Positions 3,003 to 27,890 of a stretch of 64,000 bases of DNA are shown one piece after another. The position numbers and the translations under genes are program-made. Origin of the DNA: Escherichia coli (GTDB lineage: Bacteria; Pseudomonadota; Gammaproteobacteria; Enterobacterales; Enterobacteriaceae); the NCBI RefSeq assembly GCF_044324875.1, contig NZ_CP172185.1, one strand, 5' to 3'. The number at the start of each line of letters is the position of its first letter. Position 1 is the first letter of the stretch. The notes below the pieces were generated by a model that worked only from the letters and a program-made list of their open reading frames with translations, was not told where the DNA came from and made no database searches.

Positions 3003-3370
3003 CGAATTCAAAAACGCATTAACCGACAGTAATTAAATGAGAGGGACGTGTCAGAAGAGGCTTCCCCTTATTTTATACGTCCAGTTCGGTAAAGAGTATT
3101 AGCCCACAGGACGAGGCTTATCCGAAACTACAACTCTGAAGGATTTAGTTAATCGCTTTAGAATTTCCAACTTCCGTTCCTCGCTCACAGCAGACCTTAA
3201 GATCTAGGAGGGAGTCCGCTCAGTGCCATGGGCGGACCTTAAGCTTCAGTAATTTGATTAGCACAATCCCTATGATAAATAGACTGGCCCCCTGAATCTC
3301 CAGACAACCAGTATCACTTAAATAAGTGATAGTCTTAATACTAGTTTTTAGACTAGTCATTGGAGAACAG

Positions 3371-4980: not shown

Positions 4981-5646
4981 TCGTGGGGGCAGGTCACAGC
5001 TATACGGACACGGTCAAATAGAGCACTTGCTATAACTGATCTTAAACATCCTAAATTTGATGTTAGAGTTCAGATACATAGTTCTGCCGCAAGGTATGCA
5101 GATAAGTTAGCTGCTGAAATAGTTTCAGCATATTATGATAACTCTGAGCTGGCATATGAAAGCGATTCTCCGTTTCAATTTGGTGTTATTCGAGTTCCTC
5201 GTAACGCTACTCACTTTGAGCATTCATTATATGAAAAGTACTCAGGACTTAATAAGTTCGAGGCTCCTTTTGCTGAGGCTTTAGATAGGTCTGGTTACCC
5301 TTGGCACAGAAACCTGAGCAGTGGCGGTTTTCATATCCCACTATTGACAGAGGGTGATACAAGCTCATTTTATCCAGACTTTTTAGTATGGAAGTCAGAC
5401 CTTGTCTATTGCCTTGATACCAAGGGGGGCCATCTATTGACTGCTGCCGTAGCGCGCAAGCTTTTTAATATTCATGAAGATGGTCGGAGTAAGATTCTAG
5501 TGAGATTTATCACAGAAGGAAAGCAGACAGAGCTGCGCGGCAAAGCAACAAAGGGAGGATATACTGTATGGAAAATGAAATCTGGGCATCCTACCCCAAT
5601 TTATGTGGCGGATTTAGACAAAGCTGTTAGGGAATGTCTAAAATAG
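4981..5646 (+). pseudogene. 3' fragment of a gene of unknown function with a PD-(D/E)xK-like motif; no in-frame start for its first ~120 codons
   Basis: Frame is open from the stop at 4978..4980 to 5646 but has no ATG/GTG/TTG until 5344; translation contains YPDFLVWKSDLVYCLDTKG (PD...DxK spacing typical of restriction-endonuclease-fold nucleases). Lies immediately after the IS3-family remnant. Confidence 0.4.
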
Positions 5647-5787
5647 CGAAGCCATAGCATAGAATTTTTAATGGCATTATGATCAGGACATAAAGGACTT
5701 CATGCAGGGAAAAAATATCCCAAAAGAAACTGGTCATGTCAGCACACCAAAGGATCCTCGCCGGATCCTTTGGTTTTTCTCAGCCAC

Positions 5788-5905: not shown

Positions 5906-6901
5906 CTAGATTGACTCGCGGGGAAGCCAGGGACTCTCAACTATCACTTTATCCCGGTGGGTGTCACCATTGATAATGTGCAGTGTACTTAAGCGCCCAA
6001 TTTCATAATGCGGTAGCTGGACCGTGGATAATGGGGGTAAAAATAAGTTTCCAATGCCTACAAGATTGTCATAGCCAAGAACGGCAATATCCTGTGGGAT
6101 TCTGATACCCTGCGTTAACAATGTTTGATACACCATAAATGCAATACGATCGTTACCACAGATGACCGAATCAAATCGCGGTTTCCCCTGTTCGATATGC
6201 GCCAGCAACATCTCCGGAATATCTCGGTAGTGCTCATCGCCGAATTGCATATAGCAGTGCTCAAGCGTATCAGGATCGATACTGGCTTCCCTGCAGGCGC
6301 GATCAAGCCCACGACGACGACGACGCGTCGCCAGATGGTTGACGGGTAAATGCAGGCATAGAGGGCGGCTGTATCCTGCTGCCAGCAGTGCCTGTACGGC
6401 CGTATACTGGCCATGTTCATCGTCAGGTATATAGCTGGCAACCGGCTCTCCCTTGTTCTCGCAGTTGGCCAGAACGCAAGGAAGCTCCAGTAACCGGGGA
6501 GGAATACTGACTTCACGCAGCCCCATGGTAGTAAAAATGATCCCCCCGGGTCGATGGGCGAGCAGCAGGTCGACAATATCGTCAGGATTATCATCGGTAA
6601 ACATATTCACCACAAAGCTGTTCCAGCCATACGCCCGCGCGGTTTCTTCAATAGACAGCGTGATTTCTACTGAAAAAGGAGTGGTGACCGTATCCAGCGC
6701 AAGCACACCAATCGTTTTGTTCCGGGTGCCAACACGACGAATCTGCTGGGCAGAAAGGTCTGGCACATAATTTAACTGCGTGATCGCCTCCTGCACCCGA
6801 GCCAGAGTCTCAGGCTTTACGCGTTTCGGGTCATTCAGCACCCGTGAAACCGTCATGAGCGATACATTGGCCAGTTTGGCCACATCCTTTAAAGACGCCA
6901 T
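5906..6901 (-). CDS. fosR: LacI/GalR-family repressor, CscR-like (FosR-like), divergent from the transporter operon
   Basis: 331 aa; N-terminal HTH MASLKDVAKLANVSLMTVSRVLN; strong similarity across its length to the E. coli sucrose repressor CscR from memory; gene symbol by recalled synteny with the fos locus. Confidence 0.75.
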   Translation of the reverse strand: MASLKDVAKLANVSLMTVSRVLNDPKRVKPETLARVQEAITQLNYVPDLSAQQIRRVGTRNKTIGVLALDTVTTPFSVEITLSIEETARAYGWNSFVVNMFTDDNPDDIVDLLLAHRPGGIIFTTMGLREVSIPPRLLELPCVLANCENKGEPVASYIPDDEHGQYTAVQALLAAGYSRPLCLHLPVNHLATRRRRRGLDRACREASIDPDTLEHCYMQFGDEHYRDIPEMLLAHIEQGKPRFDSVICGNDRIAFMVYQTLLTQGIRIPQDIAVLGYDNLVGIGNLFLPPLSTVQLPHYEIGRLSTLHIINGDTHRDKVIVESPWLPRESI

Positions 6902-7033
6902 AGTTTTCCATTATCTGAATGCATACACCCGGTAAGGTGTTGTGAGCAAATGCGAATGCCCTATTCTAGGCACGGACACCCAGGGTTATGCAGACCACTC
7001 TGATAAATTTGAGCTAGATCTCAACATTTCAAT

Positions 7034-7045
7034 GTTAACGTTAAC
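7034..7045. promoter_or_regulatory. Candidate LacI-family operator, perfect 12-bp palindrome centred on CG
   Basis: GTTAACGTTAAC is its own reverse complement; about 100 bp upstream of the transporter start, in the divergent fosR/fosT intergenic region. Confidence 0.4.
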
Positions 7046-7095
7046 TTTTGTGATTAACATCGACAAACAAATCAAAATCGAGTGTCCCCCCAAAA

Positions 7096-7109
7096 TGATA
7101 ACGTTACCA
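7096..7109. promoter_or_regulatory. Candidate LacI-family operator (TGATAACGTTACCA)
   Basis: Near-palindrome fitting the TGnAAnCGnTTnCA pattern of LacI/GalR operators; about 35 bp upstream of the transporter ATG at 7142. Confidence 0.4.
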
Positions 7110-7141
7110 TATTAGCATATCCTTCTTACGAGATTACGTAG

Positions 7142-8380
7142 ATGAAAAAACGGCCTACTCGAAGTTACATGCTGCTCAGCGCTCTGCTGTTCTTTTTCTT
7201 TGTGACCTGGTCCTCATCAAGTTCACTGCTCTCAATCTGGCTTCACCAGGAAGTGGGGCTAAAAGCATCGGAAACCGGCATTATTTTTTCAGTATTATCC
7301 GTCTCCGCGCTCTTCGCGCAGGTCTGTTATGGCTTTATTCAGGACCGACTTGGTCTGCGCAAACATTTGTTATGGTTTATCACCGCGTTGTTGATCCTCT
7401 CCGGCCCGGCTTATCTGCTTTTTAGTTATTTGCTGAGCGTTAATATTCTGCTGGGCAGCGTATTCGGGGGCTTATTTATCGGGCTGACGTTTAATGGGGG
7501 TATCGGCGTTCTGGAGTCCTATACCGAGCGCGTCGCGCGTCAAAGTACCTTTGAGTTTGGGCGGGCACGCATGTGGGGGTCTCTGGGCTGGGCAGTTGCC
7601 ACGTTTTTTGCCGGGTTACTGTTTAATATCAACCCTGACCTTAACTTCCTGGTGGCTTCATGCTCAGGGTTAATCTTCTTCTGCCTCCTGGCCCGATTAA
7701 AGGTGGCCGCGCCGGCAAGCATGGAGAAACTCGAAATTGGCGCTAAAAAAGTTTCTCTGGAAGACGCCCTGCGTCTGCTTACTCTGCCGCGCTTCTGGGC
7801 ACTGATATTCTTCGTGGTCGGAACCTGCATTTACGGCGTATACGATCAGCAATTCCCGGTCTATTTCTCATCACAGTTCCCGACATTACGCGAAGGGAAC
7901 GAGATGTTTGGCTATTTAAACTCTTTCCAGGTCTTTCTCGAGGCCGCAGGTATGTTTTGTGCGCCGTGGCTGGTTAATCGCATTGGTGCTAAAAATGGTC
8001 TGATATTCGCAGGAATGGTGATGGCGCTGCGCATGATTACTTCAGGGCTGGTGGAAGGCCCCCTGCTTATCTCCATTACCAAACTGCTTCACGCGGTCGA
8101 ACTGCCAATATTGTTAGTCGCCATATTTAAATACAACAGTCTGAATTTCGACAAACGTCTCTCCTCCACCATTTATCTGGTGGGATTTGCCTGCACCAGC
8201 TCCGTCATTGGTACCGTATTGTCCCCGCTGGCAGGCTTTAGCTATGAGAGATTTGGCTTCGCCCAATCCTATCTGATCATGGGCATCATGGTGTTCAGCA
8301 CCACGTTTATTTCCATTTTCCTTTTGCGCTCAACTAAATCCTCATCTGAGCCATCTTTTCTGCAGCAAAAAGCTGTGTAA
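7142..8380 (+). CDS. fosT: Oligosaccharide:H+ symporter, MFS (LacY/CscB-like)
   Basis: 412 aa, 12-TM hydrophobic profile, similar to CscB sucrose permease (…FQVFLEA…, …KLLHAVELP…); first gene of a tightly spaced operon. Confidence 0.8.
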   Translation: MKKRPTRSYMLLSALLFFFFVTWSSSSSLLSIWLHQEVGLKASETGIIFSVLSVSALFAQVCYGFIQDRLGLRKHLLWFITALLILSGPAYLLFSYLLSVNILLGSVFGGLFIGLTFNGGIGVLESYTERVARQSTFEFGRARMWGSLGWAVATFFAGLLFNINPDLNFLVASCSGLIFFCLLARLKVAAPASMEKLEIGAKKVSLEDALRLLTLPRFWALIFFVVGTCIYGVYDQQFPVYFSSQFPTLREGNEMFGYLNSFQVFLEAAGMFCAPWLVNRIGAKNGLIFAGMVMALRMITSGLVEGPLLISITKLLHAVELPILLVAIFKYNSLNFDKRLSSTIYLVGFACTSSVIGTVLSPLAGFSYERFGFAQSYLIMGIMVFSTTFISIFLLRSTKSSSEPSFLQQKAV

Positions 8381-8399
8381 TGTACTGAGAATAAAGACG

Positions 8400-9833
8400 A
8401 TGACATCCTTATTAGAACAGGCTGAACAGGTGCTTGAAAAAGCACAATCCGGGATTAATCCGCGCTGGTATCCGCGCTATCACCTCGCCCCTCGCGCAGG
8501 CTGGATGAATGATCCTAATGGCCTGGTATGGTTTGACGGCTGGTATCACGCCTTTTATCAACACCATCCCTACTCCCCGAAATGGGGTCCGATGCACTGG
8601 GGGCACGCCCGAAGCAAAGATCTGGTGCATTGGGAACATTTGCCCGTCGCGCTAGCGCCGGAAGGCCCGGCGGACAAAGACGGCTGTTTCTCAGGTTCCG
8701 CCGTGGTGGACGGCGATACGCTGGCGCTCATCTATACCGGACATAAATTTCACGGCCCGTCGGACACTGACGACAACCTCTACCAGGTGCAGTGTCTGGC
8801 GACCAGTCGTGACGGCATCCATTTTGAACGGCACGGCAAGGTGATTGATACACCGCCCGGACTGCATCACTTTCGCGATCCGAAGGTGTGGCGCGAAGGT
8901 GAGTTCTGGTACATGGTTGTCGGTTCCCGCGTGGAAAATACCGGTCAGGTGCGCCTGTACCGTTCCACCGATCTCCGCGAATGGCATGACGAAGGTATTT
9001 TCGCCGAGGCTGATGAAGGCAAGGGCTTTATGTGGGAATGCCCGGATTTCTTCCCCCTGGGAGAGAAGCGTGTCCTGATGTTCTCGCCGCAGGGCATGGC
9101 GGCGGAAGGGTATCACTATCGCAACCTGTTCCAGAGCGGTTATTTACTTGGGGACTGGCAGCCAGGTCAACCGTTCACCCACAGCGGACAATTTACTGAG
9201 CTGGACCACGGCCACGACTTTTATGCCCCGCAGAGTTTCCTGACCCCGGATGGCCGACGCATTGTCATCGGGTGGCTGGATATGTGGGAATCATCGATGC
9301 CCGAACAGCAGGATGGCTGGGCCGGAATGCTCTCGCTTCCTCGCGAATTAAGCCTTGTCGATGGTCGTGTGAGAATGAAACCTGCTGCCGAAGTGACCGC
9401 GCTGCGTGGCAGCTATTATCCCACGCCCGTCCGCTGTCTGAACAATCAGAACGTCCTTGTCGCGGCAAATGCCGACGCGGTCGAAGTTCAGTTGGCATGG
9501 GATTTGAGCGCATCGACGGCTGAACAGTTTGGTATCGCGTTGGGCGACGGGTTGAGAATTTACGTCGATGATCAGGCTGGGCGTCTGGTGGTGGAGCGCC
9601 GCTATCCGGAATATTCGCTGGAAGGCACTCGCAGTATTCCGCTTCCAGCAGACAGCGTTCTGTCACTGCGAATTTTTATTGACCGCTCATCGGTGGAAGT
9701 TTTTGTTAACGATGGTGACGCTTGCTTAAGCAGTCGTATTTATCCGCAGCCGGGCGAGCGTGATATTTCATTGTTTGCAAATCTGGGGAAGGCCTCATTA
9801 TACGATGCGGGATACTGGTCTTTAGATAAATAA
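8400..9833 (+). CDS. fosGH1: GH32 beta-fructofuranosidase / sucrose-6-phosphate hydrolase-like, no signal peptide (cytoplasmic)
   Basis: 477 aa with GH32 motifs WMNDPNGL, FRDPKV and WECPD; 19 bp after fosT. Confidence 0.8.
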   Translation: MTSLLEQAEQVLEKAQSGINPRWYPRYHLAPRAGWMNDPNGLVWFDGWYHAFYQHHPYSPKWGPMHWGHARSKDLVHWEHLPVALAPEGPADKDGCFSGSAVVDGDTLALIYTGHKFHGPSDTDDNLYQVQCLATSRDGIHFERHGKVIDTPPGLHHFRDPKVWREGEFWYMVVGSRVENTGQVRLYRSTDLREWHDEGIFAEADEGKGFMWECPDFFPLGEKRVLMFSPQGMAAEGYHYRNLFQSGYLLGDWQPGQPFTHSGQFTELDHGHDFYAPQSFLTPDGRRIVIGWLDMWESSMPEQQDGWAGMLSLPRELSLVDGRVRMKPAAEVTALRGSYYPTPVRCLNNQNVLVAANADAVEVQLAWDLSASTAEQFGIALGDGLRIYVDDQAGRLVVERRYPEYSLEGTRSIPLPADSVLSLRIFIDRSSVEVFVNDGDACLSSRIYPQPGERDISLFANLGKASLYDAGYWSLDK

Positions 9834-9925
9834 TTCTCCGTTCCGACCTGTTTCTTGCAGGGTGAGTTTTTATTTCTGCCAGTCTCTGGCTGGCATGTTA
9901 TTGTCTGGAATAATGAGAGAGCAAA

Positions 9926-11191
9926 ATGGATGAAAGCGTAATACCTCAAAATTGCATTACCTCGAAAGATAAAAATATATTTGTTCCAGGAAAACAGATG
10001 CTGGCATTAATGGTGACATTAGCAGCATTTCCTGCCATTGCTGAAGACGTTACAGGAAACTATCAAAGCTATTTTCAGGATGAATCAGACACCAACGGTA
10101 CGAGTGTTTCATTAGCCAATCAAGGCAATGAAAAATCATCCCTTAGCGCTTCATCTTCTCCGGTTGCTGCAGGTCAAAAACCTGAACTCACGACCTCGTC
10201 AAAGCCAGTGACGTTATCGGCACCAATGGAGAATAAGAAAACTGCAGTAGAAAAACGTCCTAAAGGGGATAACCCTAAAGATGTCAGTCTGTTGCGTTTA
10301 AGGCAGGAAGATCCGCCGGTTCACTGGAACAGTATTGGTCGTAACATGGAAGTGGGTAGCTTGCATGGGAACATTGGATCTCAGATAGAAATTGACGATG
10401 TTCGCTGGAGCAATAATAAGAAAAACAGCGGCAAGTTTAAACTCGCCACCATTCAGGCTTTTTTAAGGCACGATGAATTGCCTAACTGGTATTTCGGTTT
10501 CTGGAATGCCAGAGAAGACAGTTATAAAGGACAGTTCAGTAATCAGGACTATAAAGGCACCAATACCATCAATGAATTTTTTGTGGGCCATATTTTCGAA
10601 ACCTGGCGGGGTAATATCGGTACGGAAGTCATGGTCGGCTCCGAAACGGCAACTAAACGCTGGAAAAACCGGTTCAAAGTCTGGCAGGACCTGCGACTGT
10701 CCAACAAATGGAGCCTGGCCGGATACGCGTATGGCGAGTATCAGCCTCAGGGGAACGAACCGGGGAATGGCGATCTGGAGCAGTACATTTTCGAAATTGA
10801 GCCAGCCATTCAATACCGCGTGAATCCGGATCTCGGACTCTATTTGCGGCCCTATTATTACCATAACCGCCAGGAGCGTCAGAGCTGGGGCGACATTGTA
10901 GAAGAAGAATGGAAAGTCACGGCCGGGCTCTGGCGAAACTGGTATCCATTATTAACCTCCCTGTATGTTGGATTTGGCCAGGACAAAATAGATAACGCCA
11001 GCAATGCCAGCGAAGTTTTCTATGACGGCCGTTATAAGTTTATCGGTGGAACGCTGAGTTATCCGGTATTTGGTGAGGTGCGATTATATGGTGAATTCAA
11101 GGCACAATTTACGAAAGAAACCGGACTTTGGACATCAACCGGTCACTCATGGAATCCGTTTACCGTGGTTGGCGTGAATTATAACTTCTGA
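9926..11191 (+). CDS. fosX: Predicted outer-membrane beta-barrel protein (putative oligosaccharide channel); start probably internal near 9995
   Basis: Signal-peptide-like MLALMVTLAAFPAIA, Ser/Thr-rich linker, alternating-hydrophobic beta-strand pattern, C-terminal ...VGVNYNF with terminal Phe; paralogous to the ORF at 12712..13725. Confidence 0.6.
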   Translation: MDESVIPQNCITSKDKNIFVPGKQMLALMVTLAAFPAIAEDVTGNYQSYFQDESDTNGTSVSLANQGNEKSSLSASSSPVAAGQKPELTTSSKPVTLSAPMENKKTAVEKRPKGDNPKDVSLLRLRQEDPPVHWNSIGRNMEVGSLHGNIGSQIEIDDVRWSNNKKNSGKFKLATIQAFLRHDELPNWYFGFWNAREDSYKGQFSNQDYKGTNTINEFFVGHIFETWRGNIGTEVMVGSETATKRWKNRFKVWQDLRLSNKWSLAGYAYGEYQPQGNEPGNGDLEQYIFEIEPAIQYRVNPDLGLYLRPYYYHNRQERQSWGDIVEEEWKVTAGLWRNWYPLLTSLYVGFGQDKIDNASNASEVFYDGRYKFIGGTLSYPVFGEVRLYGEFKAQFTKETGLWTSTGHSWNPFTVVGVNYNF

Positions 11192-11205
11192 TATTCAGGT
11201 GTAGC

Positions 11206-12699
11206 ATGAAAAAATTAATAGTTGCGGCATCTTTCGCTCTGCTTGCGCTTTCGCTCGGCAATAACCCTGCCTGGTCACAGCCTTCGAAAGAGACATTACA
11301 GAATAAAAGCATCACCCATATTAATGGCTTTTTTCCGAGGGTTGAAGGTTCATTCGTGGGCGACCCTATGCCCGTTTTTAACGATGGCAAATTTGATATT
11401 TATTATCTTAATGATGTCCGAGGCGGCAGCGATCTGGGGGTACATGCTTTTCATCTCTTGTCGAGTGCCAACTTGTATGATTATCAGAACCATTCGGAAG
11501 TGATCCCCTACGTTAACGACGTTGACGATCCTGAACTGTTATTGGGAACCGGTTCGATTATTAAAGTCGGCGATACCTGGCATGCCTGGTACACCGCACA
11601 CAATGAAAATGTGTTCCCGGTTGAGTCTGTTATGCACGCGACCAGTAAGGACCGCCTTCACTGGGTGAAACACCCGCAGGACACCCTGTTACCCGGCGGT
11701 AACTATCGGGGTAATGATTTCAGGGACCCTCACGTCGTTTGGGTTGAGGAAAAGAAAGAATACTGGATGTTAATTACTACGCGCAGTAATGGTCGTGGGG
11801 TTATTGCCCGATACAGTTCAACGGATTTAAAGCACTGGGAAGATCGCGGCGTATTTTTTGATAACGACACCATCACCAGCAATGCCAACCTCGAATGCCC
11901 GACACTGGTTTACTTCAACGGACGCTGGTATCTCAGCTTTAGCGACCAATGGCCGTTACGCCTGACACAATACCGGGTTGCGGACAATCCGGAGGGGCCG
12001 TGGCGGAAACTGGACAATTATGTGGTCGACGGCTCAGGTTTTTACGCGGGTAAACTGGTTCTCAAAAACGATCGGCTGTTTGTTTTCGGCTGGATCCCGA
12101 CGAAAGCCGGTAACCGTGACAGCGGCAACATTGATTGGGCAGGGAATCTGGTTGCTCATGAGCTCACCGCAGATGCCCAGGGCCAGCTCAACAGCATCCT
12201 CCCCCAGGAGCTTCAGAAGGTCATCAGTGAGAATCCTGGCCCGGAAACCACCTTGACGAGCACTAAGACACTCAAAACGGACACGTCGTTCGGCCCCTTA
12301 CAGTCGGCGCTGTACCCGGCCTTGCCTGAGCGCGGTGAGTTGAGTGCAACCATCGATGTTCCTTCTGCCGGAATGGTGATGAGCTTTGGTCTGACCGACG
12401 ACAGAGTCAGTGATGCGATGCTGAACGTTGTGTTCAATAAGAGCAAAGGAAAAGTCTATTTTTTCAACGCGCCGCTAGCGTCGATTCATCAGGCTAACGC
12501 GGAATCCTGGGTGGACATTCCGATCGGGGAAAAAATTGAGTTACGCGTTCTCATACAAAACTCAATTGCTGTCTTTTATATAAACAACAAAGTGGCATTC
12601 AGTACCCGGATGTATTCCATGCAGGAGAAACCGTGGAGTATTAGCCTGCCTCAAAACGACCATTTTCACGCGACGTTGAAAATAAAAGAAATGATTTAA
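11206..12699 (+). CDS. fosGH2: GH32 beta-fructofuranosidase (levanase/inulinase-like) with N-terminal signal peptide (exported)
   Basis: 497 aa; signal peptide MKKLIVAASFALLALSLGNNPAWSQP; GH32 catalytic motifs (FRDPHV, ECP); 14 bp after the preceding gene. Confidence 0.8.
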   Translation: MKKLIVAASFALLALSLGNNPAWSQPSKETLQNKSITHINGFFPRVEGSFVGDPMPVFNDGKFDIYYLNDVRGGSDLGVHAFHLLSSANLYDYQNHSEVIPYVNDVDDPELLLGTGSIIKVGDTWHAWYTAHNENVFPVESVMHATSKDRLHWVKHPQDTLLPGGNYRGNDFRDPHVVWVEEKKEYWMLITTRSNGRGVIARYSSTDLKHWEDRGVFFDNDTITSNANLECPTLVYFNGRWYLSFSDQWPLRLTQYRVADNPEGPWRKLDNYVVDGSGFYAGKLVLKNDRLFVFGWIPTKAGNRDSGNIDWAGNLVAHELTADAQGQLNSILPQELQKVISENPGPETTLTSTKTLKTDTSFGPLQSALYPALPERGELSATIDVPSAGMVMSFGLTDDRVSDAMLNVVFNKSKGKVYFFNAPLASIHQANAESWVDIPIGEKIELRVLIQNSIAVFYINNKVAFSTRMYSMQEKPWSISLPQNDHFHATLKIKEMI

Positions 12700-12711
12700 C
12701 GGGATATTATT

Positions 12712-13725
12712 ATGAAAAACTATCATGCCCTGTCTGTTATTTTTACTCTTATGTTACCCGCGCTGGCGAATGCGAGCATGAGCATCATGAAGGATCCGTC
12801 TGGAAAGGTTATCGCCGTGGACCCTTGGTCATATCTTGATGAAGATGTTATGTGGACCTCAGCCCGCTCCTCCAATCCTGCCGGTGGCCGCGTTCATGGC
12901 CAACTGAAAATGAAATATGCCATTGAGGATAATAACTGGCGTAACAGCCATTTCCACAACGGGAATGATTCGCTGACGTTTGTACAAGGTGTGATGCGGC
13001 ACGATGCGTTACCCGGTTGGTATCTGGCTTTCTCTGAGGGCAGAACCACTAACTATAACGGGACGTGGGAGGATCAGTCTTACCTCAGCCAAAACCAGTG
13101 GACTCAGTTGATCATCGGCCATGAATATTTTTACAAGCGTCTGCGCTATGGCTGGGATGTGATGGGAGGAAGCGCCTCAATCGAAGACCGCTGGCAAGGC
13201 CGCGTTAAGTTCTTTACCGATCTTCGGGTTACGGATAATTTCTCATTCTTTAACTACCTGTATCAGCAGATCGATCACCGGCGCAGCGGTGGGTCGCAAA
13301 ACGACCGTGACGTGCGTTCATTTCAGATTGAGCCAGGCGTGCAATACATTATTAATAACAACACCGGTGTCTGGTTCCGCCAGCAGTTCGCATCTGCCAT
13401 TTTAGACAGGGCGCAGTGGGGCGATATCGACGAAAAAAGCTGGACCACGTCAGTCGGCGTCTGGCGAAACTGGGGGAAGTTATCCACAACGCTCAGCGGC
13501 GGTTATGGTCATTATAAGAAATACAATGCGCAACCTGAGGATGGCGAAGTCTTTCAGAATACCCGCAATCGCTTCCTGAAGGTATCGGCAAATTATCCTT
13601 TGACCTCTCGTTTTACCGTGTCCGGAGAAGTTACTGGTTCGTTGATCAAACAGAACGGAAGTTGGGTCACTAACGGTGAGGCCATTACCACTGAGTATAA
13701 GCTGATGCTGGATTATAACTTTTAA
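12712..13725 (+). CDS. fosY: Predicted outer-membrane beta-barrel protein, paralogue of fosX
   Basis: 337 aa; signal peptide MKNYHALSVIFTLMLPALANA; shared motifs with the 9926 ORF (HDxLPxWY, WGDIxExxWxxxxGxWRNW); C-terminal ...LMLDYNF. Confidence 0.6.
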   Translation: MKNYHALSVIFTLMLPALANASMSIMKDPSGKVIAVDPWSYLDEDVMWTSARSSNPAGGRVHGQLKMKYAIEDNNWRNSHFHNGNDSLTFVQGVMRHDALPGWYLAFSEGRTTNYNGTWEDQSYLSQNQWTQLIIGHEYFYKRLRYGWDVMGGSASIEDRWQGRVKFFTDLRVTDNFSFFNYLYQQIDHRRSGGSQNDRDVRSFQIEPGVQYIINNNTGVWFRQQFASAILDRAQWGDIDEKSWTTSVGVWRNWGKLSTTLSGGYGHYKKYNAQPEDGEVFQNTRNRFLKVSANYPLTSRFTVSGEVTGSLIKQNGSWVTNGEAITTEYKLMLDYNF

Positions 13726-13838
13726 ACCGTACGCTGGATAATCCATGCCACCTGAACACGCTGAAGCGTTAGTAAAAATAGTGACCTTACCGCAGGTCAC
13801 GTTTAAAAAAACAAGTTAATTATTATTAAGGAAATATC

Positions 13839-14801
13839 ATGAATATCTGGACTCTTGGCGATGCTGTTGTTGATCTTCTACCCCTTACAGATATGCAATT
13901 TCGTGCTTGTGCAGGAGGTGCGCCATTTAATGTTGCGATAGGTACTGCACAATTGAAATGTCGTACCGGCTTTATAGGTCGCGTAGGGGATGACGATTTT
14001 GGCCATTTCCTGAGAAAAACTCTCGAAGATTCAGGAGTTTCTACACAATGTATCCAAATGGATAAATATCATCGTACAAGTACAGTACTGGTTTCTCTTA
14101 AAGATCAGGGAGAACGTGGTTTTACATTTCTTACGAACCCTTCAGCCGACCAATTTCTAACACAAGATGCCCTTCCAGCTTTTAGTGATGATATCCTGCA
14201 TTTTTGTTCACTTGCGCTGGTTGCTGCAGATTGCCGCACGACTTTGACTAAAGCAGTCCAGGAAGTCATTGACCACGGTGGACTTATCAGCTTTGATGTT
14301 AATTTACGAGACCAAATGTGGCGTGATAAGGAAGAAATGTTTGCGACAGTGAGTCAATTCGCTGAAAAAGCCGATATCCTTAAACTCTCTGAAGAAGAGT
14401 GGTACTGGTTAATGGGTACACATGATTATACAGAGGCGTTAGAAGCACTCAAAACCCATCCTGCCAGATTAAAAGTGGTCACCTTTGGTGCGAGAGGTTC
14501 ATTGGTATTATGGCAAGATATGGTGATACATTTCAGAGGATTTAATGTTAAAAGTATTGACACAACAGGCGCTGGAGATGCTTTTATGGCTGGGTTACTT
14601 GCCAGCATCGCCAATAAAGGTTTGCCAATGAATTTTCCAGAACTTCAATTAGCAATCACTCAGGCCAGTGCCACCGGAGCGCTCGCAACTACCAAAAAAG
14701 GTGCACTTACCGCCCTTCCTGATACAGCCGCACTGGAAACGTTCATTAATCATTTTCCATTACCGGGCTATGAGATCCTTGGAGCAACCGCTACGGTGTA
14801 A
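13839..14801 (+). CDS. fosK: Fructokinase, PfkB/ribokinase family (CscK-like)
   Basis: 320 aa; N-terminal GD motif (MNIWTLGDAVVDLL) and C-terminal TTGAGDAF anion-hole motif; visibly more AT-rich than upstream genes. Confidence 0.8.
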   Translation: MNIWTLGDAVVDLLPLTDMQFRACAGGAPFNVAIGTAQLKCRTGFIGRVGDDDFGHFLRKTLEDSGVSTQCIQMDKYHRTSTVLVSLKDQGERGFTFLTNPSADQFLTQDALPAFSDDILHFCSLALVAADCRTTLTKAVQEVIDHGGLISFDVNLRDQMWRDKEEMFATVSQFAEKADILKLSEEEWYWLMGTHDYTEALEALKTHPARLKVVTFGARGSLVLWQDMVIHFRGFNVKSIDTTGAGDAFMAGLLASIANKGLPMNFPELQLAITQASATGALATTKKGALTALPDTAALETFINHFPLPGYEILGATATV

Positions 14802-14909
14802 CAACTTTTCATGCTGTATGGTGTAGGAATATAGCAAACGTATCTTCAATTGTTAGTTATGACCTCTAGAAGTATGAGATATCTTTTGTAGATAATCATG
14901 GCTGTGTAT

Positions 14910-14936
14910 GGGCAGCCTTATACTGCCCCTTTTTCT
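14910..14936 (+). terminator. Rho-independent terminator downstream of the fos-like operon
   Basis: GGGCAG-ccttatact-CTGCCC hairpin followed by CTTTTTC. Confidence 0.5.
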
Positions 14937-15081
14937 ATTACCTTAAGAAAGATAAGTACAGTTTGCTTTCCTGGAGATTAATGCATGCTCTGGATAGCAA
15001 TCCTCAACTATCAGCAGAAAGTAGATAAAATTTCAGGGTGGCCCTATAAAAATCATTAGATGCGTTTCTGACGTTACTTAG

Positions 15082-15393
<312 letters not shown>

Positions 15394-15454
15394 TTACTGA
15401 TTTAGTGTATGATGGTGATTTTAAGTAAGCGACTCGTCAGAACCGTATTGATAT

Positions 15455-17026
15455 TTACTGAGAGCTCAGATCAACTTTCCAGGGCAACAGATCGCGTACC
15501 CGGTTTGCCGGCCAGTCCTGGATATGTTCAATGACGTAACGCAGCCACTTTTCTGGCTCCACATTGTTCAGACGGCATGTGCCGATCAGCGAGTACAACA
15601 CCGCCGCATGTTCACCACCGCTGTCGGAACCCGCGAACATCCAGTTTTTCCGGCCTACGGCCACTCCCCGTAAGGCGTTCTCTGCGATGTTGTTGTCGAT
15701 TTCCACCCAGCCATTACTGCAGTACACGTTCAGTGCATCCCACTGTTTCAGCAGGTATGCGAACGCTTTTGCCGTATCTGAGTGACGCGACAGTGTTTTC
15801 ATCTGTTGCTGTATCCAGTCATACAGTGACTGCATCAGTGGCGCGGCTCTGGCTTTTCTTGCCGCCAGACGCTGTTCTGCTGAACAGCCCCGGACCTCTG
15901 CCTCGATGGCATACAGTTCACCGATACGCTGCAGGGCTTCCGTGGTGATGTAGGTGGGCGCTCTTGCATGCACATCGTGGATTTTTCTCCGGGCATGAGC
16001 CATACACGCGGCTTCCGTTATTCTGCCGGATTCGTATAACGCCCGGTAACCACCGTAAGCATCGGCCTGAAGCACACCGCTGTAACCGGCCAGGTGATTT
16101 TGTGGATGGATACCTTTCCGGTCCGGACTGTACGCGAACCAGACCGCCGGGGGCATCTGTGAACCGGCGTTACGGTCATCACGGACGTAGACCCACAGCC
16201 GGGCTGTCCGGGTTTTACCGCTGCCCGGCTCCTGGACCGGGACGGGGATATCATCAGCATGGACTTTACCGGGCATCAGCACATACTGGCGCAGGACGTC
16301 ATACAGCGGCTCCAGCAGTTCAGCAACAGCACCTGTCCAGCGCCCCAGTGTGGCACGGCTCAGCTCCACTCCCTGACGACGGTATATTTCTGACTGGCGG
16401 TATAACGGCAGATGGTCTGCATATTTCCCGGTGACAACATGGGCCAGAAGCCCCGCTCCGGCATAACTGCGTGCAATGGGTTTTGAAGGTACTGGTGCCT
16501 GCACGATATGGTCGCACCGGCAACAGGCCTGTTTCGGACGTTGTGTTTCGATAACCTTAAAGGCGCTGCTGATAAGCTCCAGTTGCTCTGACACATCACA
16601 TCCCAGAGAACTGAGTTCACCACCACAGGCAGGACAGCATTCCTCTTCCGGCCGGATAACCCGGGTTTCACGGGGAAGTGAGGCCGGTAACGGTTTACGG
16701 GCTGAAGACTGGCGCAGGGCGGATGGCAGTACCGGGTCATATTGCTCACCCAGCGTTTCCGCCATTTCTTCCTGAAGTGCGCTGATTCGCTCCTGTGCTT
16801 CCTGTATCTGCCGTTCGGTTTTTGCACGAAGTTTTTCTGAGCTTTTACCGAACTGCATACGTTGCAGTTTCGCAACCAGCGCCTTCAGCCGGTTGATTTC
16901 GGAAGCATAAGCCGCCACCCGCTGTGAGAGCAGGCGGTTGTATTCAGCCATCTGGCGGATGGTGTCCTGTTGCGTCTGCAACAGTGCCCGCAGGCGGGCG
17001 TTCTCATGAGCAAGTGAGGTGTCCAT
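15455..17026 (-). CDS. tnpC: IS66-family transposase TnpC
   Basis: 523 aa with N-terminal coiled-coil/leucine-zipper region, CxxC zinc motif and DDE core typical of IS66 transposases. Confidence 0.85.
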
Positions 17027-17045
17027 ATCCTCACTTTACAACGGG

Positions 17046-17393
17046 TTATATGCGGATTCCAGCGCGTTCCGTTCGTTTCGGGTGCTTCCAGTTGATACCT
17101 TCAAGAAGCATGGATAACTGAGCCGGAGTAAGGTGCACCTTGCCGTCACGGGTGACTGGCCAGACGAAGCGGCCCCGCTCCAGGCGTTTGGTGAAGAGGC
17201 ACAGTCCGTCACTGTCAGCCCACAACACTTTTATCTGGTCACCCCGGCGTCCGCGGAAGATGAACAGGTGTCCGGAGAACGGGTCATCCTTCAGGACGTT
17301 CTGAACTTTTGATGCCAGGCCGTTAAAGCCATTTCGCATATCGGTGATACCTGCAACCAGCCAGATACGCGAACCTGCAGGGAGAGATATCAT
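17046..17393 (-). CDS. tnpB: IS66-family Orf2 (TnpB)
   Basis: 115 aa; MISLPAGSRIWLVAGITDMRNGFNGL... is the conserved IS66 Orf2. Confidence 0.85.
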   Translation of the reverse strand: MISLPAGSRIWLVAGITDMRNGFNGLASKVQNVLKDDPFSGHLFIFRGRRGDQIKVLWADSDGLCLFTKRLERGRFVWPVTRDGKVHLTPAQLSMLLEGINWKHPKRTERAGIRI

Positions 17394-18070
17394 CAGTGGC
17401 TGCTCCCTTTTATTTCGCGGATAAGTGTCTGTAATAACGCCGGCGTCAGTTTACCTTTAAGCCTGAGAGTTCCGGCCGGCAGAACCAGCTCACAACACAG
17501 ACTGTCGGACGGTGTATTTATCTGCTCTGGTTCCTGTGCGGGGGCCGGGATTTTATTATCCGGCTCCGGCGTTAACGTCACGGGAAGCAGTGCCGGCATA
17601 TTTTTTCCGGAAGGCAGCAGGCCACCTTTCCGGTATTGATGGCGCCAGTTGAAGAGCAGGTTATCGTTGATTCCGTTTTCCCGGGCGATCTGCGCCACAC
17701 AGGCTCCGGGCTGCAGTGACTGCTCCACTAAGGCGATTTTAAACTCATAAGGGAAGTTGGGCCGCCGGGGACGTTTTTTTACCACGGGGGCTTCGGATAT
17801 AACGGTGCTTTCAGGACGTACGACTGGTACCGTGGAAAATTGTCCGTAAAGGCAGGCATCAAGTTCCTGCTCCGACATGCCTGCGGGCAAAGGCCACGAA
17901 AGGCCAGCTCTCCGAAAGCGCACGAACATACTACAAACTGTTGATTTTGGTACACCCAGGCGACGCCCGGCCACAACCCGGGGTAAATGTTCTTCAAAGT
18001 GAAGACGTAAAGCTTCAGTGATCCAGGTCCGGTGTTTCATACGATAGTGTCCATTAAAAATGATGGACAT
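17393..18070 (-). CDS. tnpA: IS66-family accessory protein (TnpA); true start uncertain, probably internal
   Basis: ORF immediately upstream of and overlapping tnpB (ATGA overlap) in the canonical IS66 arrangement. Confidence 0.6.
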   Translation of the reverse strand: MSIIFNGHYRMKHRTWITEALRLHFEEHLPRVVAGRRLGVPKSTVCSMFVRFRRAGLSWPLPAGMSEQELDACLYGQFSTVPVVRPESTVISEAPVVKKRPRRPNFPYEFKIALVEQSLQPGACVAQIARENGINDNLLFNWRHQYRKGGLLPSGKNMPALLPVTLTPEPDNKIPAPAQEPEQINTPSDSLCCELVLPAGTLRLKGKLTPALLQTLIREIKGSSH

Positions 18071-18140
18071 TATTTTTGTAGAGCCGGAGGAAACAGACCA
18101 GACGGTTTAAATGAGCCGGTTACGATTTTAAGGTGCTTGC

Positions 18141-19430: not shown

Positions 19431-21818
19431 TTAATCATTACAGGATAGGTTCATATTCCATTCATAAGCCTCAATGCCGTTAATCAGTAGTTGACGACTT
19501 TCTCCCTGAGGAATTATCACTTTCAATGTTTCCCATGCAGGGCGATAATCTCCATGAGTGTTTATTCTTAACTCAATTGTAGTGGCTGTGCAGTCCAGCT
19601 CCCATTCAAGCCACAGAGCATTACCTTCAGTATATCCCCAAGTTTCGCCATCATCTTCAAACAGAAGTCCGGTGGATTTACCCGTTCCTTTAATTGGGAA
19701 TAATTTCAATTTACGATGATTATCTTCCGCTTCACTCACGTATGTTATACGTTCACTAAGAGGAATACCTGCACCTGCACGTACTAATAATGGTAGTTTT
19801 TCCAGTGGCGCGTCGATTGTTATCCATTGACCACCACAGAACCATTCGCCATTGTAAAAGTCGTACCATCCTGTTTTGTTGTCGGGTAACCATACTCGTC
19901 GTTGTCGTTGCCCTGCTTCCACGACACTTGCAACCAGAATATCGCGTCCCAGCATAAAATCATCACATTCTTCAAATGTCTGAACATCGTGCTCATGATC
20001 AAGGAAGGTTGGACGTAATATTGGCTCATCATCGGCATGTGCCTGCCACAATAATGTATATAAATAAGGCATAAGACGATAACGTAACTCAATTGCACTA
20101 CGAATCGCGGGTGTTACTTCCGGATACATCCATGGTTCATTGACAGTATGATCATCATTCCACGAGTGGATCGTAAATCGGGGGTGCATAACACCGTTCT
20201 GAACCCAACGAACAAATAATTCTGGATCAGGCTTATCACCAGAAAAACCACCGACATCATGACCAATGTTATACAATCCTGAGAGGCTCATTCCCAGCCC
20301 CATGCGGGTGTTGTATCGAAGGGTATCCCAGTTAGTTCGGTTGTCCCCACTCCATGTCTGAACATAACGCTGCAATCCGGCGCATCCAGAGCGGGAAATC
20401 AAATATGGTCGTTTGTTCGGTGCAAATTTTTGCTGTGCTTCCATAGATGCTCTGCACATTAAAAGAGGCATTACTGGCCGAATGTGTTTAATGGCGATTT
20501 CTTTGCCAAAACCATGACAGCGCGCTTCCCCATCCCATACTTCAAACTCATTGTTATCATTCCAGGTGGAATCAATTCCCATTTCAAGTAGTTGTGTGGT
20601 TACACCTTCCTGCCACCATGCGACTGTTTGTGGGTTCGTAAAGTCCAGATGAGAACCCTCATCATCCCAGAAGCTGGAGCGTTCCGGGACGTTGTATTCA
20701 GAGTCACGAATAAAGAGCTCTTGTTCTGCTACTTCGTTATAGCGAGGATGATCCTGCAATAAACATGGTTTTATATTAGCGGCCAGGTGTATCCCTGCAT
20801 TATGAAACTCCTGACTCATCATTTTAGGGTGTGGAACTTTGTCGTAATTCCAGTTGAATACGTAGCGTTTACCATTAATAGAAGTATAACCAGAAGATAG
20901 CTGGAAAGAATCACATGGAATAGCATGTTCCTTACAAAGACGAATAAACTGCATCAATTGATTCTGAGCATCCGGTGCATCTGTATAGTGCATCGTGGAA
21001 CCGCTGTACCCAAGACTCCATTTTGGACCGAAGAGTGTTTTCCCCGTCAAACGAACAAAGGCTTTGGTGATATCAAGTACACATCTGCCAGTGAAAAGAT
21101 AATAATCAATATCTCCCGCCTCAGCCTGCCAACGGCGGTAAGTTGTATGATAATTATCTATTTCATTACCTAAATCCAGCCAACTATTGCTGAGGTTATC
21201 ATAAAATAATCCAAAGCTAATATCGCTACGGTGAGTAATTGTAAATGGAATATGTTTATAAAGAGGGTCTGTACTTACTGCATTATATCCCATTGCGTCC
21301 AGGTTCCGCATTTCATAGCGTTTTCCTGTGCGTTGCAGATCCCCGGATTTATCACCAAGTCCATAAAAACGCTCGTCATTACGTCGACTTTGATAGTGTG
21401 CAACACCATCACCATGAGCGTTTATCAGATAAGCACTGGTAGGGCGATCATTAACAAGTTCCTGCCACTGACCAGCATTATCCTTATAATGCCATTCAAG
21501 CCATAAAGGCTTGTGAATAATTACGCGTAATGAACTGGTCGTGATTGTCAGTAATTCATCATTCTGCTCCATGTTCCAGGTCGGCAGTGAAAAACCGCTA
21601 ATATCTTCGCGATGACGCCCTTCCCACGGGACATCCTTTTCCGGAGCAATGCTCCAGGTTCGGTCCAGCGACAAAACCCCCTTCCGTTTTAATAGAACCC
21701 GGAACATATTTTCTTCGAGTATATACAGGCAAAGAGAATGCTGACCATCAACTAATAGCTCTATATGATGGGCTGACTGATTTTGTAGTTTCCAGTTTTT
21801 TAATGTTTTCATCTCCAC
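19431..21818 (-). CDS. GH31 alpha-glucosidase / alpha-xylosidase family glycoside hydrolase
   Basis: 795 aa; GH31 nucleophile-region motif GIDSTWNDNNEF (variant of WIDMNE); AT-rich codon usage; followed on the minus strand by a hairpin (19366..19400). Confidence 0.75.
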   Translation of the reverse strand: MEMKTLKNWKLQNQSAHHIELLVDGQHSLCLYILEENMFRVLLKRKGVLSLDRTWSIAPEKDVPWEGRHREDISGFSLPTWNMEQNDELLTITTSSLRVIIHKPLWLEWHYKDNAGQWQELVNDRPTSAYLINAHGDGVAHYQSRRNDERFYGLGDKSGDLQRTGKRYEMRNLDAMGYNAVSTDPLYKHIPFTITHRSDISFGLFYDNLSNSWLDLGNEIDNYHTTYRRWQAEAGDIDYYLFTGRCVLDITKAFVRLTGKTLFGPKWSLGYSGSTMHYTDAPDAQNQLMQFIRLCKEHAIPCDSFQLSSGYTSINGKRYVFNWNYDKVPHPKMMSQEFHNAGIHLAANIKPCLLQDHPRYNEVAEQELFIRDSEYNVPERSSFWDDEGSHLDFTNPQTVAWWQEGVTTQLLEMGIDSTWNDNNEFEVWDGEARCHGFGKEIAIKHIRPVMPLLMCRASMEAQQKFAPNKRPYLISRSGCAGLQRYVQTWSGDNRTNWDTLRYNTRMGLGMSLSGLYNIGHDVGGFSGDKPDPELFVRWVQNGVMHPRFTIHSWNDDHTVNEPWMYPEVTPAIRSAIELRYRLMPYLYTLLWQAHADDEPILRPTFLDHEHDVQTFEECDDFMLGRDILVASVVEAGQRQRRVWLPDNKTGWYDFYNGEWFCGGQWITIDAPLEKLPLLVRAGAGIPLSERITYVSEAEDNHRKLKLFPIKGTGKSTGLLFEDDGETWGYTEGNALWLEWELDCTATTIELRINTHGDYRPAWETLKVIIPQGESRQLLINGIEAYEWNMNLSCND

Positions 21819-21826
21819 ATACTCCC

Positions 21827-23128: not shown

Positions 23129-23389
23129 AATCACCCCACCGGATGTAATAAATGATCGAGCGACAACGCAGCTCGGGGTTGCCACATCCCACTTTACCTT
23201 TCGGCTTAATACTTAAACCGGAACTACTCATTCACAATAAAAGAGGGGGGCGATGAAAAAAAGTTGGTATTGTGCACGTTTTTTCATAAGTAGTTCATAT
23301 AAATTCTAAAAATAGTCAGAAGTCCTTGCAGTCAGGCTATTCCATCCCATGAGAATTTTTTCATTTTGAAATTAGAGATAGATCACAAT

Positions 23390-27496: not shown

Positions 27497-27795
27497 GACA
27501 TCCTCCGGCTTTTGATGAATTCATGTTCCTGAGGGGGATTTCTGCCAGTAACTAACCTGATACCCCCAATACACCCCTTGTATAACAAAGATGTTGTTAA
27601 AAGCCGTTGTTATATATCATATTTTTCCTATTATGGGGGTGCTGGTATTTCAATAGGAAATAACACCCCCTAAAGTACCCCCAAAAGAAACTTGATACGG
27701 GGTGAAGTAGGTTGACCTCTGGATACAAATAAATACTGATATACAAGGGATTAGAAGAGATTTATTGACATTGGGAGAGTTCAGAAGAGGTAAAC

Positions 27796-27890
27796 TGGCG
27801 GAAGATCACAGGAGTCGAACCTGCCCGGGACCGCTGGCGGCCCCAACTGGATTTGAAGTCCAGCCGCCTCACCGGAGACGACGATCTTCC
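27796..27890 (-). tRNA. selC: tRNA-Sec (selenocysteine), anticodon UCA
   Basis: Minus-strand sequence GGAAGATCGTCGTCTCCGGTGAGGCGGCTGGACTTCAAATCCAGTTGGGGCCGCCAGCGGTCCCGGGCAGGTTCGACTCCTGTGATCTTCCGCCA matches E. coli selC; long variable arm. Confidence 0.95.

What the first reader, a model, noticed from the sequence alone, without database searches (positions are those of the whole stretch)
5906..14936. Seven-gene fos-like oligofructose/sucrose utilisation locus with a periplasmic and a cytoplasmic GH32 enzyme
A divergent CscR-like repressor faces an operon with intergenic gaps of 12-19 bp between the first five genes: MFS oligosaccharide symporter, cytoplasmic GH32, predicted OM beta-barrel, signal-peptide GH32, second OM beta-barrel, then PfkB fructokinase after 113 bp. 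The gene content suggests a pathway: OM channel, periplasmic trimming, MFS import, cytoplasmic hydrolysis, fructose phosphorylation. From memory this matches the gene order of the fos locus described in avian ExPEC (fosT-fosGH1-fosX-fosGH2-fosY-fosK, fosR divergent); I cannot verify that here.
Basis: partly seen in the sequence, partly recalled or inferred. Interest (0 to 1): 0.65.

Follow-up and report, generated by a model that had tools for sequence, protein, structure and literature searches.

The report
Known E. coli fos sugar-utilisation locus
This stretch is the already published "fos" gene cluster of E. coli, which lets the bacterium grow on short-chain fructo-oligosaccharides (a common prebiotic); it is nearly identical to the copy in the strain where it was first studied, so it is a correct identification but not a discovery.

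Summary
Seven intact genes lie at 5906-14801, followed by a terminator-like hairpin at 14910-14928. The 9,031 bp differ by only 4 substitutions from the fos locus of avian ExPEC strain BEN2908, where the locus was defined (fosR | fosT-fosGH1-fosX-fosGH2-fosY-fosK on the selC-associated AGI-3 island). Published work shows that the locus confers growth on short-chain fructo-oligosaccharides (scFOS), that FosR represses it through two operators, and that it is under catabolite repression. It is also documented on IncHI1 plasmids.

Tests run here support the proposed pathway. FosT is a LacY-family symporter. FosGH1 is a signal-less, ScrB/BfrA-type GH32. FosGH2 is a signal-peptide GH32 of the BT1760 (endo-levanase) subfamily with an intact catalytic triad. 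FosX and FosY are PF16946 OmpG-family barrels, and the FosY model has 14 strands and matches OmpG and CymA best. FosK is a PfkB fructokinase.

Corrections: the fosGH1-fosX gap is 92 bp, not 12-19 bp, and "CscR-like" holds only at LacI-family level.

Verdict: already known, low interest. The biochemical roles of FosX, FosY and FosGH2 remain open; no characterisation was found in the searchable literature.

The parts
5906..6901 (-). fosR, LacI/GalR-family repressor (331 aa), divergent from the operon
   Evidence: ORF. Full-length LacI-family hits in NCBIfam. Same CDS in BEN2908. Repressor role with two operators published (PMC3325963).
7031..7048 (.). Operator-like palindrome AATGTTAACGTTAACTTT (candidate FosR operator 1)
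   Evidence: Palindrome found. The motif occurs only here and at 7094-7108 in 64 kb, against 0.01 expected by chance. Invariant in the Citrobacter-type and Affinibrenneria loci. Assignment to the published operators is inferred, because the Mol Microbiol 2011 paper could not be read.
7049..7064 (.). CRP-like site TGTGA-TTAACA-TCGAC, directly next to operator 1
   Evidence: Read from the sequence. Invariant block TTGTGATTAACATCG in three genera. The literature reports a CRP-cAMP site and glucose repression. The exact position is inferred.
7094..7108 (.). Operator-like palindrome AATGATAACGTTACC (candidate FosR operator 2), 34 bp upstream of the fosT start
7142..8380 (+). fosT, LacY-family oligosaccharide:H+ symporter (412 aa)
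   Evidence: NF007077 530 bits (above its cutoff) and TIGR00882 419 bits. LacY structures 285 bits. A fosT deletion abolishes scFOS growth (PMC3325963 Table 1 and Fig 3 legend).
8400..9833 (+). fosGH1 (FosE1), cytoplasmic GH32 beta-fructofuranosidase (477 aa)
   Evidence: PF00251 363 bits plus PF08244. scrB_fam 477 bits. 7vco 547 bits and BfrA 3pig 373 bits. Motifs WMNDPNG (D38), RDP (160-162) and EC (213-214) present, with no hydrophobic N-terminus.
9877..9895 (+). Conserved stem-loop TGCCAGTCTCTGGCTGGCA in the 92-bp fosGH1-fosX spacer (function unknown)
   Evidence: Retained in the Citrobacter-type locus L003 with only a loop change.
9926..11191 (+). fosX, OmpG-family (PF16946) outer-membrane barrel (421 aa) with a signal peptide (...AFPAIA|ED) and a low-complexity stretch of about 80 aa before the barrel
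   Evidence: Pfam E=4.7e-130 over residues 118-421. 31% identical to FosY. C-terminal ...NYNF. Hydrophobic core at residues 26-35. The MDE start and its GAGAG Shine-Dalgarno sequence are conserved in L003.
11206..12699 (+). fosGH2 (FosE2), exported (periplasmic) GH32 of the BT1760-like subfamily (497 aa)
   Evidence: Signal peptide MKKLIVAASFALLALSLGNNPAWS|Q with no lipobox Cys. PF00251 plus PF16346 BT1760-like C-terminal domain. Best solved relatives are the BT1760 endo-levanase entries 6r3r/7znr/8a9y at about 159 bits. D53/D175/E230 align with BT1760 D41/D169/E221.
12712..13725 (+). fosY, OmpG-family (PF16946) 14-stranded outer-membrane channel (337 aa)
   Evidence: Pfam E=9.5e-129. AF2 model pLDDT 80.9, pTM 0.77, 14 strands. 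Best folds are OmpG 2iwv and CymA 4v3h. Signal peptide ...LPALANA|S and C-terminal ...DYNF.
13839..14801 (+). fosK, PfkB-family fructokinase (320 aa)
   Evidence: NF006957 fructokinase 346 bits, below the equivalog cutoff of 450. Fructokinase 5ey7 262 bits versus aminoimidazole riboside kinase 1tyy 199 bits.
14910..14928 (+). Terminator-like hairpin GGGCAGCC...GCTGCCC followed by CTTTTTCT, the likely operon end

Best explanation
This is the fos locus of the selC-associated AGI-3-type genomic island of E. coli, an accessory catabolic operon for short-chain (beta-2,1) fructo-oligosaccharides.

Shown in the literature: the locus is necessary (fosT deletion) and sufficient (cloned into K-12) for growth on scFOS. 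FosR represses the operon via two operators. Expression needs scFOS and is glucose-repressed.

Inferred here from sequence:
- scFOS cross the outer membrane through the two monomeric 14-stranded OmpG/CymA-like channels FosX and FosY.
- The exported BT1760-subfamily GH32, FosGH2, shortens or trims them in the periplasm.
- The LacY-type symporter FosT imports the oligosaccharides or products.
- The signal-less ScrB/BfrA-type GH32, FosGH1, hydrolyses them to fructose and glucose.
- The PfkB kinase FosK phosphorylates fructose to fructose-6-phosphate.
- The two palindromes at 7031-7048 and 7094-7108, flanking a CRP-like site, are the likely FosR operators and CRP site.
For: Identity: 4 substitutions in 9,031 bp versus BEN2908, with identical CDS boundaries. 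The tRNA-Sec and integrase of the island are in the window.

Literature: locus composition, repressor, operators, CRP and the fosT phenotype (PMC3325963). The cloned locus gives MG1655 an scFOS growth and competition advantage (preprint). Plasmid-borne fos is documented.

Parts: FosT. FosGH1 with catalytic motifs and no signal. FosGH2 with signal peptide and catalytic triad aligned to BT1760. FosX and FosY PF16946, with the 14-strand model and OmpG/CymA fold matches. FosK.

Regulatory motifs are unique in the window and invariant across three genera. The seven-gene order is conserved in a Citrobacter-type contig.
Against: No individual enzyme or porin of the locus has been characterised in any paper I could search. 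Compartment, order of action and substrate of FosGH2, FosX and FosY are therefore inference.

The closest solved relative of FosGH2 is a beta-2,6 endo-levanase, not an inulin-type exo-enzyme, which sits awkwardly with a purely beta-2,1 scFOS role.

Klebsiella and plasmid loci with only fosT-fosGH1 exist, so the porins and FosGH2 may not be essential for scFOS use.

The two primary papers (J Bacteriol 2009, Mol Microbiol 2011) could not be read, so operator positions are not checked against the published footprints.
Confidence: 0.93

Rival explanations
1. The locus is primarily a sucrose (csc/scr-like) utilisation system, and scFOS use is incidental.
For: FosGH1 scores best on the sucrose-6-phosphate hydrolase/ScrB family model. 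FosT belongs to the same oligosaccharide:H+ symporter family as CscB, and FosK resembles CscK-type fructokinases.
Against: Published induction and growth phenotypes are for scFOS. The locus carries two extra porins and a second exported GH32 that csc loci lack. FosR is not specifically of the fructose/sucrose repressor subfamily, scoring 46 bits against about 123 bits for generic models. Sucrose was not tested in anything I could read.
Confidence: 0.04
2. The natural substrates are levan-type (beta-2,6) or mixed fructans and their oligosaccharides. FosGH2 would act as an endo-acting periplasmic fructanase, FosX and FosY would admit longer chains, and scFOS would be only a laboratory proxy.
For: FosGH2 belongs to the BT1760 endo-levanase subfamily. 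It hits the PF16346 C-terminal domain, its triad aligns with BT1760, and the BT1760 substrate-contacting Gln239 and Arg244 are conserved as Q248 and R252. The FosY model resembles CymA, which sits in the same 14-stranded monomeric channel group. The porin-GH32-porin triad is a conserved module in distant Enterobacterales. Cecal content induces the operon only partially.
Against: Identity to BT1760 is low (about 159 bits), so linkage specificity cannot be transferred. Documented growth and induction are with beta-2,1 scFOS. No levan data exist.
Confidence: 0.2
3. The copy in this window is a decaying remnant within an IS-ridden island and is non-functional.
For: The locus is flanked by IS3, IS66, IS1 and IS5 elements and pseudogenes, and an IS66 element sits only about 620 bp downstream of fosK.
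Against: All seven ORFs are full length with the same boundaries as in the functional BEN2908 locus. Only 2 conservative or semi-conservative amino-acid differences exist (FosX K118/E, FosGH2 L151/F). The promoter/operator region and the terminator are intact, and the IS66 insertion lies beyond the terminator.
Confidence: 0.03

Closest known systems
fos locus of avian ExPEC BEN2908 (AGI-3 island, GenBank AY857617; Schouler 2009, Porcheron 2011/2012)
   Same: Same seven genes, order, orientation and CDS boundaries, with 4 substitutions in 9,031 bp. Same island context: ISEc27 upstream; GH31/MFS/LacI cluster, integrase and tRNA-Sec downstream.
   Different: A 2.7-kb IS66-family element is inserted about 620 bp downstream of fosK here (TSD GATTTTAA) but elsewhere in the BEN2908 assembly (TSD GGACGAGG). 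There are two amino-acid differences (FosX K118 vs E, FosGH2 L151 vs F).
Plasmid-borne fos operon (IncHI1/ST9 blaCTX-M-1 plasmids of equine E. coli and other conjugative plasmids)
   Same: Same 9-kb locus at 99.7-99.8% identity on 40+ plasmid records, including Salmonella and Klebsiella michiganensis. Described in the literature.
   Different: Here the locus is chromosomal, at selC.
E. coli csc (cscRAKB) sucrose regulon
   Same: Same logic for the inner half of the pathway: a LacI-family repressor, an oligosaccharide:H+ symporter, a cytoplasmic GH32 and a PfkB fructokinase.
   Different: csc has no outer-membrane channels and no exported GH32. The substrate is sucrose, not scFOS. Direct BLASTP against CscA/B/K/R was not done because no reference sequences were available in the tools.
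Bacteroides thetaiotaomicron levan PUL enzyme BT1760 (endo-levanase, PDB 6R3R)
   Same: FosGH2 shares the subfamily (best PDB hit, PF16346 C-terminal domain), the catalytic triad and two substrate-contacting residues.
   Different: BT1760 is a cell-surface enzyme of Bacteroides working with SusCD. FosGH2 has a plain Sec signal with no lipobox Cys and is paired with OmpG-type porins. Its specificity is unknown.
OmpG (E. coli) and CymA (Klebsiella oxytoca), monomeric 14-stranded channels
   Same: The FosY model has 14 strands and matches these folds best (TM 0.56-0.73).
   Different: Only about 11% sequence identity and no sequence-level PDB hit. The Pfam family is different (PF16946). FosX carries a low-complexity N-terminal extension of about 80 aa.

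Membership tests
fos locus (E. coli scFOS utilisation locus) | Near-identity of sequence to the reference locus of BEN2908 | tested here: met
   4 substitutions in 9,031 bp and identical CDS boundaries.
fos locus (E. coli scFOS utilisation locus) | Gene content and order: fosR divergent, then fosT-fosGH1-fosX-fosGH2-fosY-fosK | tested here: met
   ORFs and families match the published description.
fos locus (E. coli scFOS utilisation locus) | Two FosR operators and a CRP site in the fosR-fosT intergenic region | tested here: met
   Two related palindromes plus a TGTGA-N6-TCGAC site, unique in the window and invariant in three genera. Not compared with the published footprints because that paper is not held.
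fos locus (E. coli scFOS utilisation locus) | Confers growth on scFOS | not testable with these tools
   Published for BEN2908 and for the cloned locus. Needs a growth assay for this strain.
Glycoside hydrolase family 32 | N-terminal five-bladed propeller domain with the nucleophile Asp, the RDP Asp and the EC acid/base Glu | tested here: met
   FosGH1: D38, D161, E213. FosGH2: D53, D175, E230, aligned to BT1760 D41/D169/E221.
OmpG porin family (PF16946) / monomeric 14-stranded channels | Signal peptide, C-terminal aromatic beta-signal and a 14-strand barrel | tested here: met
   Pfam E about 1e-130 for both. FosY model has 14 strands and best hits OmpG and CymA. Both proteins end in ...YNF. 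FosX itself was not modelled.
OmpG porin family (PF16946) / monomeric 14-stranded channels | Channel activity for oligosaccharides | not testable with these tools
   Needs liposome-swelling or bilayer assays.
PfkB fructokinase | Reaches the curated fructokinase equivalog score | tested here: not met
   NF006957 346 bits versus a cutoff of 450. The best structure hit is still a fructokinase, 5ey7, ahead of the AIRs kinase 1tyy. It is a family member, but the fructokinase assignment rests on context and the literature.
CscR/ScrR-type sucrose repressors | Specific similarity to the fructose/sucrose repressor subfamily | tested here: not met
   TIGR02417 scores 46 bits versus a cutoff of 390, and generic LacI-family models score higher.

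The most novel reading that the evidence does not exclude
The outer half of the pathway (FosX, FosGH2, FosY) is an uncharacterised, conserved 'porin - BT1760-like GH32 - porin' module of Enterobacterales. It has its own FosR-type operator/CRP region in distant genera, as in Affinibrenneria. In E. coli it may admit and cleave longer or beta-2,6-linked fructans in the periplasm, which would make the true substrate range of fos broader than scFOS.
Probability: 0.2. Interest if true: 0.4.

Novelty: already known. Interest (0 to 1): 0.1.

Why it matters
The locus is a documented fitness factor. It lets E. coli, including ExPEC and carriers of ESBL plasmids, consume a widely used prebiotic, and it is already being exploited as a selectable metabolic module on engineered plasmids. 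Finding it here only tells us that the source strain carries an AGI-3-type island. The residual scientific value lies in the uncharacterised porins and the BT1760-like periplasmic GH32.

Tried and rejected
- I tried to read the two primary papers (PMC2612441, PMC1347334) and Valcek 2021 (PMC8092906). None is held, so operator positions and the substrate range from those papers could not be checked.
- A sequence search of FosY against the PDB found nothing, so I used structure prediction plus Foldseek instead.
- I considered Met25 (9998) as the true fosX start because it gives a canonical short signal peptide. I rejected it as the preferred call because ATG 9926 has a GAGAG Shine-Dalgarno sequence, its MDE start is conserved in the Citrobacter-type locus, and PGAP uses it. 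The cleavage site AIA|ED is the same either way.
- The sigma-70 promoter scan gave no convincing hit in the fosR-fosT spacer, and the total count was no higher than in shuffled sequence. This is consistent with a CRP-dependent promoter but proves nothing.
- I did not run the expensive metagenome or genome-collection scans, because the finding was already explained.
- Direct BLASTP against CscA/B/K/R was not possible, as no reference sequences were reachable.
Full report

| Gene | Coordinates | Strand | Length |
|---|---|---|---|
| fosR | 5906-6901 | - | 331 aa |
| fosT | 7142-8380 | + | 412 aa |
| fosGH1 | 8400-9833 | + | 477 aa |
| fosX | 9926-11191 | + | 421 aa |
| fosGH2 | 11206-12699 | + | 497 aa |
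| fosY | 12712-13725 | + | 337 aa |
| fosK | 13839-14801 | + | 320 aa |

The intergenic gaps are 19, 92, 14, 12 and 113 bp. The claim of 12-19 bp between the first five genes therefore fails for fosGH1->fosX.

**Identity.**
- Megablast of the 9,031 bp finds the region in 52 of 5,426 complete E. coli genomes. It is full length in 37 of them, and 36 records match at 99% identity or better.
- One of these genomes is BEN2908, the avian ExPEC strain in which the fos locus was defined. A base-by-base comparison gives 4 substitutions. Two are synonymous; the others are FosX K118 vs E and FosGH2 L151 vs F. CDS boundaries are identical.
- The first 29.6 kb of the window is collinear with BEN2908's selC-associated island: ISEc27 upstream, then a GH31/MFS/LacI cluster, a tyrosine integrase and tRNA-Sec downstream. 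tRNA-Sec lies at 27796-27890.
- The exception is one 2.7-kb IS66-family element that sits at different sites in the two genomes. Each copy has its own 8-bp target duplication.

**Literature.**
- PMC3325963 describes the fos locus (GenBank AY857617, AGI-3 island). [quoted passage not shown]
- The same paper reports that FosR binds two operators, that expression is glucose-repressed and scFOS-dependent, that a fosT mutant is Fos-, and that the locus promotes cecal colonisation of axenic chickens.
It shows that the cloned locus gives MG1655 a growth and competition advantage on scFOS.
- The locus is also documented on IncHI1 plasmids. I found it at 99.7-99.8% identity on more than 40 plasmid records, mostly conjugative, including Salmonella and Klebsiella michiganensis.
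- A truncated fosT-fosGH1 pair at 81.7% identity occurs on E. coli plasmids of about 62 kb. This matches the truncated Klebsiella-type locus noted in the 2012 paper.

**Inner-membrane and cytoplasmic parts.**
- FosT is a LacY-family oligosaccharide:H+ symporter (NF007077 530 bits, TIGR00882 419 bits, LacY structures 285 bits).
- FosGH1 has both GH32 domains. It is closest to the solved beta-fructofuranosidases 7vco (547 bits) and Bifidobacterium BfrA 3pig.
- FosGH1 carries WMNDPNG (D38), RDP and EC, and it has no hydrophobic N-terminus. This is consistent with a cytoplasmic location.
- FosK is a PfkB kinase. It is closest to fructokinase 5ey7 (262 bits) and less close to Salmonella aminoimidazole riboside kinase 1tyy (199 bits). 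It falls below NCBI's fructokinase equivalog cutoff (346 vs 450 bits), which explains the PGAP name 'aminoimidazole riboside kinase'.
- FosR is a full-length LacI-family protein with no specific affinity to the fructose/sucrose repressor subfamily.

**Exported enzyme.**
- FosGH2 has a Sec-type signal peptide (MKKLIVAASFALLALSLGNNPAWS|Q, no lipobox Cys) and a divergent GH32 N-terminal domain plus the BT1760-like C-terminal domain.
- Its best solved relatives are the Bacteroides thetaiotaomicron endo-levanase BT1760 entries (6r3r, 7znr, 8a9y; about 159 bits). The identity of 6R3R was confirmed in PMC6560043.
- D53/D175/E230 align with the BT1760 triad D41/D169/E221, and Q248/R252 align with the substrate-contacting Q239/R244.

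**Outer-membrane parts.**
- FosX (residues 118-421) and FosY (43-337) match PF16946, the OmpG-porin 1 family, at E of about 1e-130. They are 31% identical to each other, and both have signal peptides and end in ...YNF.
- An AlphaFold2 model of FosY built on 30 homologues (pLDDT 80.9, pTM 0.77) has 14 long antiparallel strands. Its best solved matches are OmpG (2iwv) and CymA of Klebsiella oxytoca (4v3h).

**Regulatory region.**
- The 240-bp fosR-fosT spacer contains two related palindromes, AATGTTAACGTTAAC (7031-7045, extending to 7048) and AATGATAACGTTACC (7094-7108). A CRP-like TGTGA-N6-TCGAC site lies between them at 7049-7064.
- The palindrome motif occurs nowhere else in the 64 kb, against 0.01 matches expected by chance.
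- These blocks are invariant in a Citrobacter-type locus and in Affinibrenneria salicis, while the surrounding sequence has diverged.
- This fits the published model of two operators plus a CRP site. The exact correspondence is inferred because the 2011 paper is not held.

**Comparative context.**
- FosY homologues occur in Enterobacter, Citrobacter (a large cluster at 92% identity), Pantoea, Buttiauxella, Yokenella, Rahnella, Aeromonas and Klebsiella.
- A Citrobacter-type contig carries the full seven-gene order without IS flanks, which suggests the E. coli island acquired the locus from such a lineage.
- In Affinibrenneria, a LacI gene and the same operator region precede a porin-GH32-porin triad, with a second BT1760-like GH32, a LacY-type MFS and a ScrY-like porin nearby. 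The locus looks modular: an inner module (T-GH1, alone in Klebsiella) and an outer module (X-GH2-Y).

**Mechanism.** Shown by others: the locus is required and sufficient for scFOS growth, is repressed by FosR and is CRP/glucose controlled. Inferred here, the pathway runs in five steps:
1. Entry through the outer membrane via FosX and FosY.
2. Periplasmic cleavage by FosGH2.
3. Proton-coupled import by FosT.
4. Cytoplasmic hydrolysis by FosGH1.
5. Fructose phosphorylation by FosK.

**What remains open.** No paper in the searchable library characterises FosX, FosY or either enzyme individually. FosGH2's membership of an endo-levanase subfamily leaves room for a wider substrate range.

**Verdict.** This is a correct recognition of an already described and experimentally studied locus. 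The novelty class is 'already known' and interest is low.

Noticed in passing
window 15426-18116 (tnpC ORF 15455-17026, -): An intact IS66-family element flanked by the 8-bp target duplication GATTTTAA sits about 620 bp downstream of fosK. In the BEN2908 assembly the same element lies at a different site (empty here at about 3109-3116) with the duplication GGACGAGG, and there it is annotated as frameshifted. The window is therefore an AGI-3-type island but not the BEN2908 assembly.
   Followed up: yes
window 9834-9925, stem-loop 9877-9895: The unusually long 92-bp fosGH1-fosX spacer holds a stem-loop, TGCCAGTCTCTGGCTGGCA, that is conserved in the Citrobacter-type locus with only a loop change. 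It lies at the boundary between the 'inner' module (fosT-fosGH1, found alone in Klebsiella) and the 'outer' module. It could be an mRNA processing, stabilising or attenuating element.
   Followed up: partly
window 10043-10276 (FosX residues about 40-117): FosX carries a Ser/Thr/Pro/Lys-rich low-complexity stretch of about 80 residues between its signal peptide and the barrel. FosY lacks it. FosX-like proteins in L003 and L002 also have such an extension, though its sequence is poorly conserved. Its role is unknown.
   Followed up: partly
window 19431-24460: A second carbohydrate locus lies in the same island: GH31 glycosidase (19431-21812, -), MFS transporter (21827-23128, -) and a divergent LacI-family regulator (23390-24460, +). 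Coordinates were mapped from the BEN2908 annotation.
   Followed up: no
window 26312-27890: Island boundary: tyrosine integrase (26312-27496, -) next to tRNA-Sec (27796-27890, -), followed by the core genes yicJ and yicI. The part of the window from about 27.9 kb onward is core chromosome.
   Followed up: partly
L002 (Affinibrenneria salicis VYKJ01000018) 5922-16260: A distant relative has a LacI gene and the same operator/CRP block in front of a porin-GH32-porin triad. A second BT1760-like GH32, a LacY-type MFS and a ScrY-like sugar porin lie in a neighbouring convergent unit. This suggests the fos locus was assembled from modules.
   Followed up: partly
window 5344-5646 and 5746-5774: A 100-aa orphan ORF, not annotated in BEN2908, lies between the IS3 remnant and fosR. 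It is followed by a perfect 12-bp-stem hairpin with a T-run (5746-5774) that could terminate fosR-convergent transcription.
   Followed up: no
E. coli plasmids of about 62 kb, e.g. NZ_CP173571 35358-38165: A truncated fosT-fosGH1 pair at 81.7% DNA identity is carried on small plasmids in human E. coli isolates, resembling the truncated Klebsiella locus mentioned in the 2012 paper.
   Followed up: no
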